Shown one piece after another: positions 37,771-43,307 of a stretch of DNA of 53,672 nt; the stretch's first letter is position 1; each line of letters opens with the position of its first letter. The stretch lies in sequence record PV615261; one strand, 5' to 3'. The DNA is from Shigella phage vB_Shi_2KOFFS. The notes beneath the pieces are model-generated. The model searched no databases. It saw only the letters and a program-made list of their open reading frames with translations, and was not told where the DNA came from. Position numbers and translations under genes: made by a program.

Positions 37771-38870
37771 TGGCTTACACTACCTTTTCACAAACCAAGA
37801 ATAACCAACTATTAGAACCAATGTTCTTTGGTCAGAACGTTAACGTTGCTCGATATGACCAACAGAAGTACAGCATCTTCGAGAAGTTAATCGAGAAGCA
37901 GTTATCTTTCTTTTGGCGACCTGAGGAGGTTGATGTTAGCCAGGACCGAATTGACTATGCTGGTCTTCCTGAGTGTGAGAAACACATTTTCACCAGCAAT
38001 TTACGATACCAAATCCTGCTTGATTCCATTCAGGGACGCGGACCAACCACAGTTTTACTACCAATTGTGAGCATTCCTGAGCTGGAAACTTGGATTGAAA
38101 CTTGGTCATTTTCGGAGACAATTCACTCTCGCTCTTACACGCATATTATTCGTAATATCGTGACAGACCCAAGTGTCATTTTCGATGAAATTGTGGAGAA
38201 TGAGCACATTAAAATGCGTGCAATCGGCATCTCCCAATATTATGACGAGCTTCAACATCTGACTTCCATGTGGCATCTGCATGAAGATAAAGTTTCTCTT
38301 CGTGAGCTTAAGAAGAAGCTGTATTTATGCCTCATGTCCATTAATGCACTGGAAGCAATTCGCTTTTATGTCAGTTTTGCTTGCTCATTTGCCTTCGCTG
38401 AACGTAAGTTAATGGAAGGAAATGCCAAGATTATTCGCTTAATTGCTCGTGATGAAGCACTCCATTTGACCGGAACTCAGCACATGCTGAACCTTCTTGC
38501 AAGCGGTGTTGATGACCCAGAAATGGCCGAAATTGCTAAAGAATGCCGTCAAGAATGCCAAGAAATGTTCGAAAATGTGGCCCAACAAGAGAAAGATTGG
38601 GCTGATTATTTGTTCAAAGATGGCTCAATGATTGGCTTAAATAAGCAAATTCTGTGCGGATATGTGGAATATATCACGAATATTCGTATGCAAGCAGTTG
38701 GATTGGATGCTCCATTCAAAGGTGCTACTAACCCGATTCCTTGGATTAACGCATGGCTAAATTCGGATGCTGTACAAGTTGCTCCACAAGAAACGGAGAT
38801 TAGTTCGTACCTTGTCGGGCAGATTGATTCCGAAGTGGACACCAATGCTCTGGGCGGATTTGAGCTGTAA
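37770..38870 (+). CDS. nrdB: ribonucleotide reductase small subunit (class Ia R2-like)
   Basis: [20 protein letters not shown] and [30 protein letters not shown] match iron-ligand and tyrosyl-radical regions of class Ia NrdB. Confidence 0.75.
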
Positions 38871-39015
38871 CGATTATATGCGAGAAGAGATTCGATGCGT
38901 TAGCATCGTTTCTCTTTGAGCTAGAATAAAACAAGTAAATTAAATATTTATTTATTCCCAATATTGCTACAATATTAAGAGTAATATTAGGAATGCGTAA
39001 AGTTAAAACCAAATG

Positions 39016-39050
39016 GTACATGGTCGGTCAACTGTACCTGCTTCAATCTT
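39016..39050 (+). repeat. 35-40 nt intergenic repeat element, copy 1
   Basis: GTACATGGTCGGTCAACTGTACCTGCTTCAATCTT; second copy at 42611-42650. Confidence 0.6.
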
Positions 39051-39419
39051 CGTTCACGGTCGGTCAGCTGTATCTCGCCGAAATTTGTTCGAACAGTTGT
39101 CTGACTATGAAATAATTTTTTTTTTATAATTTTTTTTTATTCTTAATATTGTTACAGAATTAATGAGACTAAAATTCGTAACAAAGCTACGAGACTCGAC
39201 TTGTTACAATATTAATGAGACTCGAATTGTGGCAATATTAATTTTTTATTTTTAGGGGCCGGGGAGCAGAAGCCCAACGTCCTATCGGACTTAAATACGG
39301 TCCCTACTCCAACTTTTTCCTACAGCCTATCGGCTTTCAAACAACACCAAGTTAGGCGCTTCGCTTATAAGTCAAGGTCAAAGGCAATCAGAGTACGCTG
39401 TTGTAATGTGCTAATCTCA

Positions 39420-39436
39420 CCATTAGTTGGTTGTGA
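39420..39436 (+). promoter_or_regulatory. conserved promoter-like motif (CATTAGTTGG family), upstream of RNA polymerase gene
   Basis: cCATTAGTTGGtTGTGA; one of at least 9 copies of consensus ACATTAGTTGGATGTGAA. Confidence 0.45.
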
Positions 39437-39498
39437 TTATGAATAGGCTACGCAAGTCTAATCCGTTTCAGTTAAATCATAATCAATTGGAGACTATC

Positions 39499-41613
39499 AT
39501 GACTAACGAAGAATACCGTGCACTGGCTGCTGATGGCGCTCGCTTGAAAGAAGAAGGCCAAGGTTGGAAAGACGTGCTCGATACGATGGACCGTTGCAAT
39601 CAGATGGTAGATGAAATCACCTCCGCTACACAATCCGAAACTAAAACCGAAACTAAATTGGAGACTCGCAAAATGACAACTATCTCAACTCAAACTATCA
39701 AATCCGTTGTCCCTGCTATCACTGCTCTGGTATATCGTGCCAAAGAGAAACAGAACTACATGCAACCTCAGACCTGTGCTATTGCTGCTCTTGCAATCTT
39801 TAAGATGATGACCTCATTCACTCGTGATGATGTTGTTCCTGCAATTGCAATGGTTGAGCTGGCTTCTGCTTCAATTGCTGATGCCAACCGCTACAACAAC
39901 GATTTGAAAGCAATGCACTATGTTGACCCAGCTATCAACCTCATTGGTCTGGCTAAACACTTTGGCTTCATCACCATGAACGAAGATAAGTCATTCCAAC
40001 AAACTGACACATGGGTTGAACTGGTTACAACCAAAGACACAGCAGTGCCATTCACTGAGCGTGTTACATCTGAATCTCGTCGCAAGCCTTTCGTTAAAGG
40101 TGGCAAAGTTAAGCCATCCAAGACTCTGAAAGCTGCAATCGAATTCCTGCAAGATACTGAGTACCATGTGGAGACTGAGATGGTTCGCATCATTCAGTCC
40201 ATGCTTGAGCAACGTACTTATGGTGGCTTGCAGATGCCAGAAGCAATCCAGACTGAACTCCATGTTTGGAACAATGCTGTAGCAATGATGAATCAGGACA
40301 CACTGTATTCTGACTACTTTGCTGATAACCGTGGCCGTCTGTATCATGTAGCATGTGCTGGCCCTAACCCACAATCCTCTGACTTTGCTCGTTGCTTGTA
40401 TTCTCACAATGTTGAGAACATCGTTAAGAAGTTTAACGAAGATGGTTCTACTACCATTGCATACAACATGTTCATGGCAGAGCTGGAAGATATTTCTGGT
40501 GGTGAATGGTGCAGTGCTAAACGTTTAACTTATGTTGCTCAGAATCCGGCTGGTTCACTTGCTCGCATGATGAACATGCCTAAAGCTGAACGTCCTTCCA
40601 AGCCATTCACTTATGTTCGTCTGGCTCTGGATTGGTTCAAGTTTGAGACTATAGGTGAATGCGATTCTCGTGTAGGCTTTGGCTTAGATGCTAAATGTTC
40701 TGGTACTCAATATCTGGCATTCATTGCTGGTAACATGGAAATGGCTCGTGCTACAGGTCTGGTTGATTCTGAGACTAAAGCATCTGACCCATACCAGTTG
40801 AGTCTCCGTGAACTGTTGAAGTTACTCGACCGCTCTTCAATGAAGCCATCTCCTGAAATCATGGACGAATTCTTGAATCCGAAATCTGGTCGTAAGTTTA
40901 TCAAAACTCCGTACATGGCTATCCAATATGGTGGTGGTAAAGCTGCATTAACTGGTTCTTCTGACTTTATCTCCTACATGACAGAAGCGCTCCAGATTCC
41001 TATGGAGAAAGCTGAGGCATTTGCTGAACTGTGTGTAGAAGCAATCCATAACGCATTGGGTGCTAAGATTAACATGTTCATTGAGAAAGCTGCTGATGCT
41101 GCATACAACCGTTGTGTTGAACTTGGTAAAGAGTACATCACATACCGTCACACAGACGGTCAGGTTGTAATGAAGCCTTGCTTCCCATCTCGTGAAATCT
41201 GTGAGGCATTCAGCATTCGTGTTGACTCTCAAACTCGTGTCATCTTTGGCCAGATTCAGGAGAATAAGCCTTGGACCATTCGTGAATCCAACCCAACTAA
41301 AGAAGAATTCAAGCGTACTTTCGTTGTTAACTACATTCAAGGTATTGACGCATTGGTTGCTCGTACTGTTGCAGTTAAAGCTAAAGAAGCTGGTCTTCGT
41401 GGTTTTACTTCAATCCATGATTGTTTCCGTTGCTGTCTGGCAGATGCTCCACGTATGATGGAAGTTATTCGTGCAGCATATGTTGAAATCTTCGTAACCA
41501 ACAATCAATTCGAGAATCTGTCTAAGCAACTTGGTGGCATTCAGATGTATCATGAGAACATCGTAACCGAAGAGCTTCTGATGAGCGAACACGCTTACTA
41601 CTTCTGTCAATAA
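39499..41613 (+). CDS. T7-like single-subunit DNA-dependent RNA polymerase
   Basis: Motif A GLDAKCSGTQYLAFIAG (T7 DGSCSGIQH), motif B RKFIKTPYMAIQYGGGK, motif C FTSIHDCFRC (T7 IHDSFGT); ATG 39499 after GGAG; about 704 aa. Confidence 0.8.
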   Translation: MTNEEYRALAADGARLKEEGQGWKDVLDTMDRCNQMVDEITSATQSETKTETKLETRKMTTISTQTIKSVVPAITALVYRAKEKQNYMQPQTCAIAALAIFKMMTSFTRDDVVPAIAMVELASASIADANRYNNDLKAMHYVDPAINLIGLAKHFGFITMNEDKSFQQTDTWVELVTTKDTAVPFTERVTSESRRKPFVKGGKVKPSKTLKAAIEFLQDTEYHVETEMVRIIQSMLEQRTYGGLQMPEAIQTELHVWNNAVAMMNQDTLYSDYFADNRGRLYHVACAGPNPQSSDFARCLYSHNVENIVKKFNEDGSTTIAYNMFMAELEDISGGEWCSAKRLTYVAQNPAGSLARMMNMPKAERPSKPFTYVRLALDWFKFETIGECDSRVGFGLDAKCSGTQYLAFIAGNMEMARATGLVDSETKASDPYQLSLRELLKLLDRSSMKPSPEIMDEFLNPKSGRKFIKTPYMAIQYGGGKAALTGSSDFISYMTEALQIPMEKAEAFAELCVEAIHNALGAKINMFIEKAADAAYNRCVELGKEYITYRHTDGQVVMKPCFPSREICEAFSIRVDSQTRVIFGQIQENKPWTIRESNPTKEEFKRTFVVNYIQGIDALVARTVAVKAKEAGLRGFTSIHDCFRCCLADAPRMMEVIRAAYVEIFVTNNQFENLSKQLGGIQMYHENIVTEELLMSEHAYYFCQ

Positions 41614-41632
41614 CAACTAAGCGCCAAGGATG

Positions 41633-41650
41633 GCATTAGTTGCATGTGAA
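41633..41650 (+). promoter_or_regulatory. conserved promoter-like motif copy
   Basis: gCATTAGTTGcATGTGAA, 26 nt upstream of ORF start 41676. Confidence 0.45.
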
Positions 41651-41675
41651 TCTAATAAACAATTTGGAGCATATC

Positions 41676-41843
41676 ATGTTTACAGTGACCCTAGTAACCT
41701 ATTACGGCAAACAAGTTTGTGAGAAGTTTGAGACTTTAGAAGAAGCAAGAGCTTTTGCAGCACTTGAAGAGAACATTTATGTAGAGTGTGAAATCACTGA
41801 TGGTGATAAGCAATACGAAATAGTTAAGCCTACACTCAACTGA
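41676..41843 (+). CDS. hypothetical small protein (55 aa)
   Basis: ATG after GGAGCATATC; downstream of promoter-like motif. Confidence 0.45.
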   Translation: MFTVTLVTYYGKQVCEKFETLEEARAFAALEENIYVECEITDGDKQYEIVKPTLN

Positions 41844-41893
41844 TTCCCAATATTCAGACAATATTGCTGCATGTAATATTGTCTCGATATTCG

Positions 41894-41911
41894 ACATTAG
41901 TTGGATGTGAA
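41894..41911 (+). promoter_or_regulatory. conserved promoter-like motif copy
   Basis: ACATTAGTTGGATGTGAA exact consensus; no ORF follows for about 1.1 kb. Confidence 0.45.
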
Positions 41912-42610
41912 GTAAAAGAATACGGAGAAATATTACTCACGTTGTTCGTGGGTTTCCGCATGTCATGTTGAATCATTCTAGAAACATTCAGCATGTCAGC
42001 TTTGAGTTACAGTGTTGTAATGATGTGGCAATCATTGAACTCCCTAGGTAGGCCACCTACAGTTCCAGCAACCATGACTTAGAGTAGGAATATCTATCCG
42101 AAACTTGTACTTCACCTATAGCATGTTCAATTGCGACAATATTGCTCCATCTCCTATTATAAAGGCCCACCCACAAGCCGGGAGATAACTTTGGTAATAT
42201 TGGAACTTTTGGACATGCTTCTTTCTTTCAATCAGAATTCGAAAGAAGAGAAGAGTCGGAGCAAAGCCTCTCGTTTTCACGCAGAAGCCGCCCCGATTTT
42301 GAGCAACAAATATTGTGACAATTTTGTCGCAGTATGGCATGTAAATATTGCTACAAATTGGCATGTTAGAATGTGGCAGAATTGTTAGAGGACTAATCAC
42401 CTCGAAGATACAATCGTCTACCAATCTGGCATGTTAATTTTGTAACAGTATTTGTGCCAATTTCGCATGTAATAGCTGTATCAGTAATGACCCAATATTC
42501 TTGCAACCCGCATGAATACTGGCTTCCAGCCAAGCGAAGGCTTTATCATCGCATGTAATATTGTGACAATATTGGGATAAAACCCTTTATTTAATTTGTT
42601 TTATTATGCT

Positions 42611-42650
42611 GTACATGGTCGGTTTTCCGTACCTGCTTGCTCCAATCTTA
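42611..42650 (+). repeat. 35-40 nt intergenic repeat element, copy 2
   Basis: GTACATGGTCGGTTTTCCGTACCTGCTTGCTCCAATCTTA; matches 39016-39050. Confidence 0.6.
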
Positions 42651-42765
42651 ATGTGCCAAATACGTTAAGTATGGGAGTAAACCTGTAATTAATGGTGCAT
42701 GTTTAATTGTGACAAAATTCGTCTATTTGGCAGATGAATTAGTTGCAATTAAGCATGTTCATTTA

Positions 42766-42783
42766 TCATTAGTTGCATGTGAA
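42766..42783 (+). promoter_or_regulatory. conserved promoter-like motif copy
   Basis: tCATTAGTTGcATGTGAA. Confidence 0.45.
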
Positions 42784-43076
42784 TAAGACCAAATCTCTGT
42801 AAATTCTGCTGAAATTGTGTGACAGATTTTAGAGAGATTATGTCTCCAAGCTAATCATTGTAGTTTTTAGACACTTTGTGTGTCACATATATAGCCTGTG
42901 AAAAACGTGTGGTTTATTGCCGGATTGCAACGCGCCCACCAGACTAGGAAGTCCCTGATGGCGGCACACACAGGAATACTATATAACTCCCTACAACTTT
43001 AAGGTGGATTGAGGTAAGACAAGACCTCCACAATCGTTCTGTAGGGAGTTCTTTTAACTTAGGAGAATAAGCAGAA

Positions 43077-43307
43077 ATGAATTACGCACTGTATTGCTAT
43101 TTAAACAAACAAGGCTTTGTTAAGCACGCTTTGGTTAACATTAAAACTAAGGAAGTATTGTTGGCCGACCAATCAATTGTTGACTTTAGATTGGTATGGA
43201 AGAAAGCAATGCACCCTGAACATGTTTGGGAAACAATTCAGTTAGATAAGCACCACAAAATTGTGGCAACTGCTACTCGTCCAGACCACATTCTACCAAG
43301 AGGTTAA
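43077..43307 (+). CDS. hypothetical early protein (76 aa)
   Basis: ATG after AGGAG; first ORF after the 1.2 kb non-coding region. Confidence 0.55.
   Translation: MNYALYCYLNKQGFVKHALVNIKTKEVLLADQSIVDFRLVWKKAMHPEHVWETIQLDKHHKIVATATRPDHILPRG

What the first reader, a model, noticed from the sequence alone, without database searches (positions are those of the whole stretch)
41847..43076. 1.2 kb gene-free region after the RNA polymerase gene packed with a second family of repeats built on the palindrome CAATATTG
Between 41847 and 42783 at least eight irregularly spaced copies of an element resembling GCATGTAATATTGTGACAATATTG occur; many contain TGTGACA or TTGACA-like hexamers and the perfect palindrome CAATATTG. 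No ORF here has a ribosome-binding site. Such an array could be a bank of strong host-polymerase early promoters, an operator array for a DNA-binding regulator, or a replication origin. Related CAATATT units also occur at 38955-39240.
Basis: seen in the sequence. Interest (0 to 1): 0.55.

Follow-up and report, generated by a model that had tools for sequence, protein, structure and literature searches.

The report
Oriented repeat array at phage terminal-repeat junction
The gene-free 1.2 kb after the phage's RNA polymerase gene really holds a conserved, one-directional array of GCATGT-plus-palindrome sites. It spans the edge of the genome's 3-kb terminal repeat and is most likely a set of protein-binding sites for replication start or genome-end handling, not a bank of host promoters.

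Summary
The window is a phiEcoM-GJ1-like coliphage (Chaseviridae, Carltongylesvirus).

- **The repeat.** Region 41847-43076 has no conserved ORF. GCATGT is its commonest hexamer: 12 copies on the + strand plus one GCATGA, against one on the - strand and 0.6 expected. Seven copies are directly followed by a match to the 17-bp palindrome AATATTGTGACAATATT. Further palindromes lie at 38960-39239.
- **Conservation.** The array keeps its order and orientation in seven Cleopatravirinae genera.
- **Position.** Terminal-repeat ends known for five relatives place the repeat's right boundary at 42256-42260, inside this region.
- **What it is not.** Classical -35/-10 sigma-70 promoter-like sites are not enriched. 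It is also not the genome-wide promoter candidate CATTAGTTGGATGTGA, which has 10 sites.
- **Conserved module.** In all 12 relatives where it was measured, the best palindrome is followed by 37-42 nt of AT-rich DNA and a TGGTC-containing box. A paralogous copy sits before the repeat's left boundary. The replication proteins are T7-like.

My best reading (about 0.35) is an iteron-like binding-site array of a replication origin region. Rivals are terminal-repeat processing or a DNA-entry stop as in phage T5, operators, promoters, or an RNA-level role. The function is untested. I found no published description in the papers I could search.

The parts
41847..43076 (.). Gene-free region after the RNA polymerase gene and a 55-aa ORF. 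Part I (41847-42255) lies inside the direct terminal repeat; part II (42261-43076) lies in unique DNA.
   Evidence: no conserved ORF. (terminal-repeat boundaries of relatives map here).
41869..41891 (+). Unit 1: GCATGT + dyad AATATTGTCTCGATATT (14/17). It ends 3 nt before a P motif.
41958..41963 (+). Unit 2: GCATGT without a dyad. The hexamer is conserved across genera (0.89).
41991..41996 (+). Unit 3: GCATGT without a dyad (hexamer conservation 0.86).
42121..42143 (+). Unit 4: GCATGT + TCAATTGCGACAATATT (13/17).
42337..42360 (+). Unit 5: GCATGT-A-AATATTGCTACAAATTG (12/17). The hexamer is invariant in all genera compared.
42361..42383 (+). Unit 6: GCATGT + TAGAATGTGGCAGAATT (11/17). The hexamer is invariant. 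It reads TGTTAGAAT (extended -10-like) and opens a 60-nt highly conserved block.
42429..42452 (+). Unit 7: GCATGT-T-AATTTTGTAACAGTATT (14/17). The hexamer is invariant.
42465..42488 (+). Unit 8: GCATGT + a degenerate dyad (9/17). This copy is not conserved outside the genus.
42510..42515 (+). Unit 9: GCATGA variant, with no dyad.
42551..42573 (+). Unit 10: the perfect copy, GCATGT + AATATTGTGACAATATT (17/17), followed by GGGA. In the exact-match scan of viral contigs, the 21-mer AATATTGTGACAATATTGGGA was found in phages of 3 genera (Carltongylesvirus, Sabourvirus, Faunusvirus); Aeromonas phage phiA050 also carries it.
42574..42616 (.). AT-rich spacer after the best dyad. It is 37-42 nt long and 73-87% A+T in 12 relatives; its sequence is not conserved but its length is. 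It lies in the fifth least stable 50-nt window of the genome.
42612..42650 (+). Conserved box GTACATGGTCGGTTTTCCGTACCTGCTTGCTCCAATCTT. GGTC is invariant, and the pentamer reads TGGTC in 11 of the 12 relatives measured (TTGTC in 4HA13).
   Evidence: T7 primase site 5'-(G/T)2GTC-3' from PMC12839067.
42697..42719 (+). Unit 11: GCATGT + TTAATTGTGACAAAATT (13/17).
42753..42780 (+). Units 12 and 13: two GCATGT copies 22 nt apart. The second lies inside the P motif at 42767-42783.
41849..41865 (.). Stand-alone dyad AATATTCAGACAATATT (15/17).
42309..42325 (.). Stand-alone dyad AATATTGTGACAATTTT (16/17), 48 nt outside the right terminal-repeat boundary.
42256..42260 (.). Inferred right boundary of the direct terminal repeat (TCGGA, also present at the left boundary).
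   Evidence: Mapped from Mangalitsa, 4HA13 and Myduc (PhageTerm annotations), from Y2 and PM1 (both repeat copies present in the record) and from the start of the Faunus record.
39285..39289 (.). Inferred left boundary of the direct terminal repeat (TCGGA). The repeat is about 2971 bp in this window.
38955..39239 (.). Region A, just before the left terminal-repeat boundary. It holds four dyad-type sites (38960, 39145, 39197, 39223) without GCATGT, and the most AT-rich and least stable DNA of the genome (39105-39154).
38960..39050 (+). Module A, a paralogue of 42557-42650: dyad, 44 nt of AT-rich DNA, then GTACATGGTCGGTCAACTGTACCTGCTTCAATCTT.
   Evidence: pairwise alignment.
41895..41911 (+). 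P motif CATTAGTTGGATGTGAA, annotated as 'putative phage promoter 1' in the GJ1 record. It belongs to a different repeat family interleaved with the array.
42767..42783 (+). P motif CATTAGTTGCATGTGAA ('putative phage promoter 2' in the GJ1 record), 310 nt upstream of the next gene.

Best explanation
**Claim.** The repeats are a conserved, co-oriented array of composite protein-binding sites. Each full unit is an asymmetric GCATGT hexamer followed at 0-1 nt by a 17-bp dyad (AATATTG-N3-CAATATT). The array sits in the family-wide non-coding control region that follows the RNA polymerase gene and spans the junction between the terminal repeat and unique DNA. I think it most likely works as the iteron-like part of a replication origin region.

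**Proposed mechanism.**
1. A sequence-specific protein, probably phage-encoded and dimeric on the dyad, occupies the sites.
2. This helps open the adjacent AT-rich tract after the best site (42574-42616).
3. The T7-gp4-like primase-helicase loads and primes at the conserved TGGTC box.
4. Transcription from the interleaved P promoters possibly assists, as in T7.
5. A second, paralogous module (38960-39050) before the other terminal-repeat boundary would be a secondary origin.

**Shown:** the array, its orientation, its conservation, the module architecture, the position of the terminal-repeat boundary and the T7-like replisome.

**Inferred:** protein binding, the identity of the binder, and origin activity.
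For: - **Real, oriented array.** 12 GCATGT copies on the + strand against 1 on the - strand and 0.6 expected. The dyad matches 8 sites against 0.45 expected. All 7 composite units lie in the region.
- **Selection.** The same oriented array occurs in the seven Cleopatravirinae genera sampled, with 8-14 forward and 0-3 reverse GCATG per region. The hexamers are more conserved than the rest of the region across genera (0.76 against 0.54; permutation p = 0.0003).
- **Local, not genome-wide.** The 16-mer repeat graph finds the dyad family only in 38960-39240 and 41849-42720. The P motif, in contrast, is spread over 10 sites.
- **Origin-like module.** In all 12 relatives measured, the dyad is followed by 37-42 nt of AT-rich DNA of conserved length and then a GGTC-containing box that reads TGGTC in 11 of them. 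The window holds a paralogous module A.
- **Unwinding.** The least stable DNA of the genome lies next to the dyads in both regions.
- **T7-like replication genes.** The primase-helicase matches T7 gp4 at E = 1e-30. Pol A and a 5'-3' exonuclease are present.
- **T7 precedent.** Every T7 origin contains a T7 RNA polymerase promoter, the primary origins are phi1.1A and phi1.1B, and phiOR is a secondary origin (PMC8373140). The T7 primase site is (G/T)2GTC (PMC12839067). From my own knowledge of the T7 map, phi1.1A/B lie directly after the RNA polymerase gene and phiOR lies just before the right terminal repeat. Those are the same relative positions as module B and module A.
- **Family-wide architecture.** The other subfamily (Nefertitivirinae) also has a 1.1-1.3 kb gene-free region after the RNA polymerase gene, with other local oriented repeats and an AT-rich tract.
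Against: - No origin has been mapped in any Chaseviridae phage, and GC skew is uninformative.
- No candidate initiator or DNA-binding protein was found among the neighbouring small early proteins.
- Unit spacing is irregular (22-216 nt), unlike classical iterons.
- T7-type origins need a phage promoter directly upstream of the AT-rich tract. Here the nearest upstream P motif is 680 nt away, and the element that abuts the tract is the dyad itself.
- GCATGT is absent from module A, so the hexamer is not needed for whatever the two modules share.
- The position astride the terminal-repeat boundary fits a role in end processing or DNA entry equally well.
Confidence: 0.35

Rival explanations
1. **Terminal-repeat junction signal.** The array acts in genome-end formation and packaging, or as a DNA-entry stop. 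The sites would bind terminase or accessory proteins that position the cuts at both terminal-repeat boundaries. Alternatively they would halt or organise DNA entry after the repeat, which carries only the RNA polymerase gene. The T5 injection-stop region is the model for the second option.
For: - The region straddles the right terminal-repeat boundary, with 409 nt inside and 816 nt outside.
- Dyad sites also precede the left boundary.
- The nearest dyads lie 45-51 nt outside each boundary in the window, 4HA13 and Y2. I counted this by hand.
- T5 has a 1.2-kb untranslated 'Repeat Region 3', mostly inside its left terminal repeat and overrunning into unique DNA by 270 bp. It is full of direct and inverted repeats in conserved order and is proposed as the injection stop signal (bioRxiv 10.1101/866236).
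- From my own knowledge, the T7 terminal repeat is also flanked by short-repeat arrays and by phiOL and phiOR.
Against: - GCATGT units are absent from the left boundary region.
- The dyad-to-boundary distance is 60 nt in PM1 and differs in Myduc.
- Units extend about 500 nt from the cut site, further than known terminase-binding sites do.
- The paired DnaA boxes that define the T5 model are absent: the genome has only 3 DnaA boxes.
- Two-step entry has never been reported for this family.
Confidence: 0.25
2. **Operator array.** A phage early or middle regulator binds the dyads and controls the interleaved P promoters. This could switch transcription of the RNA polymerase gene and early region on or off.
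For: - A 17-bp dyad is typical of an operator for a dimeric protein.
- Dyad 41875-41891 ends 3 nt before the P motif at 41895, and a GCATGT unit sits 14 nt before the P motif at 42767. Both arrangements are conserved across genera.
Against: - Most units are far from any P motif.
- The dyads in region A have no promoter or gene to control.
- No helix-turn-helix or other DNA-binding family was detected in the neighbouring early proteins.
- Strict co-orientation is not required for dyad operators.
Confidence: 0.15
3. **Promoters.** The units are either host sigma-70 promoters of the extended -10 type (TGT + nAnnnT inside GCATGTnAnntT) or a second class of phage RNA polymerase promoter. For the phage option, the best copy AATATTGTGACAATATT|GGGA resembles the SP6 promoter ATTTAGGTGACACTATA|GAAG at 12 of 21 positions by my own comparison, including the GTGACA core.
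For: - Units are strictly co-oriented with all genes.
- Unit 42361 reads TGTTAGAAT and is invariant across genera.
- The best copy is followed by GGGA, like T7-type start sites.
- The ICTV profile says Chaseviridae promoters are not yet identified (PMC12842549).
Against: - Sigma-70 -35/-10 sites are not enriched, and most units lack A at position 2 or a good hexamer.
- The conserved GCA and the dyad symmetry are not explained.
- The motif is absent upstream of genes elsewhere. The unrelated P motif is the one with a promoter-like distribution.
- One single-subunit polymerase is unlikely to read both motifs.
Confidence: 0.15
4. **RNA-level element.** The region is transcribed from the P motif at 41895 as a long leader or non-coding RNA, and the GCAUGU repeats act in the RNA, for example as protein-binding or processing sites.
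For: - A one-strand bias is expected for RNA motifs.
- A conserved hairpin with compensatory changes (42037-42066) and a stable 5'-UTR hairpin show that parts of the region are probably structured RNA.
Against: - The dyads recur in region A, which lies downstream of the last gene.
- Conservation is at the level of primary sequence, with no covariation around the units.
- There is no Rfam match.
Confidence: 0.07

Closest known systems
Phage T7 origins of replication: primary origin phi1.1A/phi1.1B plus an AT-rich region directly after gene 1, and secondary origin phiOR before the right terminal repeat
   Same: - Same position relative to the RNA polymerase gene and to the terminal repeat.
- T7-like primase-helicase, Pol A and exonuclease.
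- An AT-rich tract with a conserved TGGTC, which matches the T7 primase pentamer.
- Phage-promoter-like motifs within the region.
   Different: - T7 origins have no array of dyad sites.
- In T7 the promoter directly abuts the AT-rich tract, whereas here the dyad does.
- The RNA polymerase is only remotely related to that of T7.
- Origin activity is untested.
Phage T5 'Repeat Region 3' / injection stop signal region (bioRxiv 10.1101/866236)
   Same: - About 1.2 kb of untranslated DNA at the right edge of a long terminal repeat that carries the first-expressed genes, overrunning into unique DNA.
[quoted passage not shown]
   Different: - The sequences are unrelated.
- The paired DnaA boxes are absent.
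- T5 uses host RNA polymerase only.
- Two-step injection is not known for Chaseviridae.
Iteron-type origins (lambda ori: four dyad-symmetric 19-bp iterons, a roughly 40-bp AT-rich region, then a palindrome; phage P4 ori + crr). From my own knowledge.
   Same: - Repeated binding sites of about 17-24 bp in one orientation, each with internal dyad symmetry.
- The sites lie next to an AT-rich tract of about 40 nt.
- There are two separated clusters, as with P4 ori and crr.
   Different: - Spacing is irregular and the copies are degenerate.
- There is an extra asymmetric GCATGT hexamer.
- No initiator gene has been identified.
'Putative phage promoters' annotated in phiEcoM-GJ1 (EF460875) and SA91KD
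   Same: - They lie in the same non-coding region.
- Two of them contain GCATGT.
   Different: - They are a different motif (CATTAGTTGGATGTGAA), spread over the early and middle genome.
- The GCATGT + dyad array itself is not annotated in the five annotated relatives' records inspected over this region (GJ1, Mangalitsa, SA91KD, 4HA13, Myduc).

Membership tests
Sigma-70 (host) promoter bank | -35 and -10 hexamers at 16-18 nt spacing, enriched over chance | tested here: not met
   11 sites found against 11.2 +/- 2.8 in shuffles over 38800-43300. None coincides systematically with the units.
Sigma-70 (host) promoter bank | Extended -10 (TGnTATAAT) able to work without a -35 | tested here: inconclusive
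   By my reading, unit 42361 gives TGTTAGAAT (5/6). The other units score 2-4/6. Position weights after GCATGT show A at +2 and T at +6 only weakly.
T7-type single-subunit RNA polymerase promoter | One conserved motif of about 17-23 bp, found upstream of many genes across the genome and co-oriented with them | tested here: not met
   The units are co-oriented but confined to two non-coding regions. The P motif meets this criterion instead.
T7-type origin of replication | T7-like replisome (gp4-type primase-helicase, Pol A) | tested here: met
   (E = 1e-30 to T7 gp4 structures).
T7-type origin of replication | AT-rich tract with a primase recognition pentamer (G/T)2GTC | tested here: met
   An AT-rich tract of 37-42 nt is followed by a GGTC-containing pentamer in 12 genomes, reading TGGTC in 11 and TTGTC in 4HA13. 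The pentamer definition comes from PMC12839067. Whether this phage's primase reads it is unknown.
T7-type origin of replication | Phage RNA polymerase promoter immediately upstream of the AT-rich tract | tested here: not met
   The nearest upstream P motif (41895) is about 680 nt away, and the P motif at 42767 lies downstream of the tract.
T7-type origin of replication | Initiation of DNA synthesis at the site | not testable with these tools
   This needs replication-intermediate mapping.
Iteron-type origin | Several same-orientation copies of a binding site next to an AT-rich unwinding element | tested here: met
   Spacing is irregular, however.
Iteron-type origin | Cognate initiator protein | tested here: inconclusive
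   No DNA-binding family was detected in 9 neighbouring small proteins. Most of them have no known function.
T5-type injection-stop / terminal-repeat-edge repeat region | Long untranslated repeat-rich region at the right edge of the terminal repeat, overrunning into unique DNA, with repeat order conserved among relatives | tested here: met
   compared with 10.1101/866236.
T5-type injection-stop / terminal-repeat-edge repeat region | Pairs of DnaA boxes in large inverted repeats | tested here: not met
   TTWTNCACA occurs only 3 times in the genome (8.2 expected). Two copies lie in the region, and they are not paired.
T5-type injection-stop / terminal-repeat-edge repeat region | Two-step DNA transfer | not testable with these tools
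   No report was found for Chaseviridae.
Known RNA families / CRISPR-like array | Match to a curated RNA model, or identical repeats at regular spacing | tested here: not met
   There is no Rfam hit at gathering score, and only two sub-threshold miRNA-model hits. Spacing ranges from 22 to 216 nt and the copies are degenerate.

The most novel reading that the evidence does not exclude
The GCATGT + dyad array is the cis-acting core of a combined 'entry stop, origin and end-processing' station that is specific to Chaseviridae.

1. The terminal repeat, which carries essentially only the RNA polymerase gene, enters or is expressed first.
2. A protein bound to the oriented array marks the junction between the terminal repeat and unique DNA.
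3. The newly made phage polymerase starts from the adjacent P promoters.
4. The same sites, which flank both terminal-repeat boundaries, later define where the repeat is duplicated and cut.

This would be a hybrid of the T5 and T7 strategies that has not been described.
Probability: 0.1. Interest if true: 0.75.

Novelty: new variant of a known kind. Interest (0 to 1): 0.45.

Why it matters
Chaseviridae are myoviruses with a T7-like RNA polymerase and roughly 3-kb terminal repeats. According to the ICTV profile their promoters are still unidentified, and I found no mapped origin or packaging signals in the papers I could search.

This analysis adds four things:
- It pins the terminal-repeat boundaries of this genome to TCGGA at 39285-39289 and 42256-42260.
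- It separates two motif families. The P motif is promoter-like and spread over the genome. The GCATGT + dyad family is local and strictly oriented.
- It defines a conserved tripartite module: dyad, AT-rich tract of about 40 nt, TGGTC box.
- Together these give concrete, mutable targets for finding the origin, the end-processing signals, and the protein that reads a 17-bp palindrome conserved across seven Cleopatravirinae genera whose isolates came from Escherichia, Yersinia, Erwinia, Pantoea, Pectobacterium, Proteus and Aeromonas.

The result is also practical. Several of these phages are being developed for biocontrol, and engineering them requires knowing which non-coding DNA is essential.

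Tried and rejected
- **Host sigma-70 promoter bank.** The consensus scan shows no enrichment.
- **CRP, DnaA, Tus/Ter, matS, Fur and sigma-54 sites.** I compared the unit with these consensus sequences from memory and none fits at the required spacing. The DnaA box count is below chance.
- **Known RNA families.** None was found.
- **Coding potential.** There is no conserved ORF.
- **GC-skew origin signal.** The skew is flat and positive, as expected for a one-strand genome.
- **Reading promoter specificity from the polymerase.** The protein matches T7 RNA polymerase only weakly (E = 0.004), so the specificity loop cannot be aligned.
- **Finding a DNA-binding protein next to the array.** Pfam and PHROGs give only families of unknown function.
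- **Collecting more relatives from IMG/VR.** The conserved 21-mer returned only 7 loci, mostly the same isolates.
- **Checking whether the array motif is the general promoter in the other subfamily.** In Shewanella phage Spp001 the TGTGAC-type repeats are again local, and no genome-wide motif emerged.
- **A supposedly window-specific 97-nt insertion.** It is a common polymorphism.
- **The GJ1 (2008) and Y2 (2011) genome papers.** They are not in the held library, so I cannot exclude that they mention these repeats.
Full report
**Identity of the window.** The region and the RNA polymerase gene match phiEcoM-GJ1-like coliphages at 85-96% DNA identity (family Chaseviridae, subfamily Cleopatravirinae, genus Carltongylesvirus). 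Weaker DNA similarity extends to Erwinia, Pectobacterium, Pantoea, Proteus and Aeromonas phages of the same subfamily. The ICTV profile states that these phages have linear genomes with terminal repeats of about 3 kbp. It also says they encode a single-subunit RNA polymerase whose promoters 'have not yet been identified' (PMC12842549).

**Checking the observation.**
- The stretch 41847-43076 lies between a 55-aa ORF that follows the polymerase gene (39499-41613) and the next gene at 43077.
- No ATG-ORF of 40 aa or more is shared among ten relatives, and GJ1 has none.
- GCATGT is the commonest hexamer in the region. There are 12 copies on the + strand and one on the - strand, against 0.59 expected and never more than 6 in 5000 Markov simulations. 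A thirteenth unit reads GCATGA.
- The 17-mer AATATTGTGACAATATT is an 8-1-8 palindrome. With up to three mismatches it matches eight sites, against 0.45 expected. Seven of them lie in 38960-39161 or 41849-42573.
- Seven GCATGT copies are followed within 0-1 nt by at least 10/17 of the palindrome. All seven are in the region and on the + strand.
- So the repeat family is real. Its invariant, oriented core is GCATGT.

**Two motif families, not one.**
- A genome-wide search for 16-mers repeated with up to two mismatches finds CATTAGTTGGATGTGA ('P') as the top family. It has ten sites, all on the + strand, spread over the early and middle genome and mostly just upstream of genes.
- P is the 'putative phage promoter' annotated in the GJ1 and SA91KD records. 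It is conserved in all Cleopatravirinae genera checked.
- The dyad family is the next largest and is confined to the two non-coding regions.
- P and the dyad do not align with each other by my own comparison. P is therefore the better candidate for the phage polymerase promoter, and the array is something else.

**Conservation.**
- In regions sampled from seven genera, the gene-free stretch carries 8-14 forward and 0-3 reverse GCATG.
- A nine-genome alignment shows that individual units are orthologous.
- GCATGN hexamers are 0.76 identical to the window across other genera, against 0.54 for the rest of the region (permutation p = 0.0003). Three hexamers are invariant.
- The other subfamily, Nefertitivirinae, has polymerases only about 33% identical. 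It also has a 1.1-1.3 kb gene-free stretch after the polymerase gene, but with other local oriented repeats: GTATGAYTATG in an Aeromonas phage and GTGTGACTTTGTAGC-type in Shewanella phage Spp001. An AT-rich tract is present there too.
- The architecture is thus family-wide, while the motif is specific to the subfamily.

**The region straddles the terminal-repeat boundary.**
- PhageTerm-based annotations give repeats of 3234 bp (Mangalitsa), 3120 bp (4HA13) and 3202 bp (Myduc).
- The Y2 and PM1 records carry both copies, of 2608 and 2665 bp.
- The Faunus record starts exactly at the base after the Mangalitsa boundary.
- All left ends fall within a few bases of each other at the conserved CCAACGTCCTATCGGAC. 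The right ends fall within about 10 bases of each other at the aligned (A)GTCGGA.
- In the window both boundaries carry TCGGA, at 39285-39289 and 42256-42260. This gives a repeat of about 2971 bp.
- Hence 409 nt of the gene-free region (four GCATGT units) lie inside the repeat, and 816 nt (nine units) lie in unique DNA.
- The second cluster of dyads (38960-39239) lies just outside the left boundary.
- The published PYps23T repeat of 2339 bp (PMC8762354) runs from one P motif to another and is the outlier.

**A conserved tripartite module.**
- The perfect unit at 42551-42573 is followed by GGGA, then an AT-rich stretch, then the box GTACATGGTCGGTTTTCCGTAC.
- Across 12 genomes the stretch between dyad and box is always 37-42 nt and 73-87% A+T. 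Its sequence is not conserved. The box keeps GGTC in all 12 and reads TGGTC in 11 of them.
- A paralogous module (dyad, 44 nt, GTACATGGTCGGTCAACTGTACCTGCTTCAATCTT) sits at 38960-39050.
- The least stable 50-nt windows of the whole genome are 39105-39154 and 38939-38988. Window 42556-42605 ranks fifth.

**Context for a mechanism.**
- The replication genes are T7-like. The primase-helicase matches T7 gp4 structures at E = 1e-30, and there is a family A polymerase and a 5'-3' exonuclease.
- In T7, every origin contains a T7 polymerase promoter. The primary origins are phi1.1A and phi1.1B, and phiOR is a secondary origin (PMC8373140). The primase reads 5'-(G/T)2GTC-3' (PMC12839067).
- From my own knowledge of the T7 map, phi1.1A/B and their AT-rich region lie directly after the polymerase gene, and phiOR lies just before the right terminal repeat. 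Modules B and A occupy the same relative positions.
- This is the basis for my preferred reading: an origin region in which the dyad units act as iteron-like binding sites next to an unwinding element and a priming box.
- Its weaknesses are that no initiator was found, the spacing is irregular, GCATGT is missing from module A, and no P motif abuts the AT-rich tract.

**Rival explanations.**
- The strongest rival is a role at the terminal-repeat junction itself. T5 has a 1.2-kb untranslated 'Repeat Region 3', mostly inside its left terminal repeat and overrunning into unique DNA. It is packed with repeats in conserved order and is proposed as the injection stop signal (10.1101/866236). The architectural match is close, but the paired DnaA boxes of the T5 model are absent here.
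- The dyads nearest to each boundary lie 45-51 nt outside it in the window, 4HA13 and Y2, but 60 nt outside it in PM1. I counted these distances by hand.
- Operators for the interleaved P promoters remain possible.
- Promoters also remain possible. Classical -35/-10 sigma-70 sites are not enriched, one unit reads as a good extended -10, and the best copy loosely resembles the SP6 promoter.
- An RNA-level role is possible but less likely.

**Literature.** Searches of the held library found no description of this array. The original GJ1 and Y2 genome papers could not be read.

**Verdict.** The array is a new variant of the known class of repeat-rich control regions at phage terminal-repeat edges and origins. 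Its function is untested, and the origin reading carries about 0.35 confidence.

Noticed in passing
window 7575, 12605, 39421, 41634, 41895, 42767, 46132, 50242, 50382, 52346 (+ strand): The motif CATTAGTTGGATGTGA(A) is the most repeated 16-mer family of the genome. It lies mostly in intergenic DNA 18-150 nt upstream of genes and is conserved in the Cleopatravirinae genera checked. It is the best candidate for the still-unidentified Chaseviridae polymerase promoter.
   Followed up: partly
window 39285-39289 and 42256-42260: Both inferred terminal-repeat boundaries carry the same pentamer, TCGGA. Five relatives from five genera have their boundaries at the aligned positions, which suggests a shared cut-site motif.
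   Followed up: partly
window 42147-42186: The box CCTATTATAAAGGCCCACCCACAAGCCGGGAG lies about 90 nt inside the right terminal-repeat boundary. It is among the most conserved non-coding stretches across the genera compared and is near-identical even in Proteus phage Myduc. Its function is unknown. Nefertitivirinae have hairpin + CCACAAG repeats that may be related.
   Followed up: no
window 42037-42066: A conserved hairpin (GAACT...AGTTC with an inner stem) shows three base pairs with compensatory changes among seven genomes. It is probably a structured RNA or DNA element downstream of the P motif at 41895.
   Followed up: partly
window 42353-42414: A 60-nt block (…GCATGTTAGAATGTGGCAGAATTGTTAGAGGACTAATCACCTCGAAGATACAAT) is highly conserved across genera, less so in Myduc. 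It starts with an extended -10-like TGTTAGAAT and could mark a small host-transcribed RNA.
   Followed up: no
window 42889-42985: A 97-nt segment with inverted ends is absent from GJ1 and from all other genera aligned, but present in 25 Escherichia and Yersinia phage records. It is an insertion/deletion polymorphism just upstream of the first early gene.
   Followed up: partly
window 42986-43049: A stable stem-loop (ACTCCCTACAAC…GTTCTGTAGGGAGT) lies directly before the ribosome-binding site of gene 43077. Related hairpins occur in other genera. It may be a processing or translational control element.
   Followed up: no
window 41832-41908: A 34-nt-arm inverted repeat (76% complementary) is centred on GCATGT unit 1. 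It pairs the end of the 55-aa ORF with the P motif at 41895.
   Followed up: no
L005 (Proteus phage Myduc) 2766-3202: A 219-bp segment that includes the conserved CCACCCACAAG box is tandemly duplicated and ends exactly at the annotated terminal-repeat boundary. This could be real or an assembly artefact at the repeat edge.
   Followed up: no
L007/L008 (Yersinia phage PYps23T): The published 2339-bp terminal repeat is bounded on both sides by ATTAGTTGGA of the P motif. This differs from the boundaries in five other phages. It may reflect recombination or template switching at the repeated motif in the ligation-PCR assay.
   Followed up: partly
record PP952070.1 (hits H11, H90): 'Staphylococcus phage Pel53' (host given as Staphylococcus hyicus) is about 89% identical in DNA to these coliphages, and its RNA polymerase is 92.7% identical. 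The host label looks doubtful.
   Followed up: no
window 39499-39700 (polymerase N-terminus): The first 61-67 residues of the RNA polymerase have no match in many close relatives, whose matches start at residue 62 or 68. The N-terminus is therefore variable or differently annotated.
   Followed up: no
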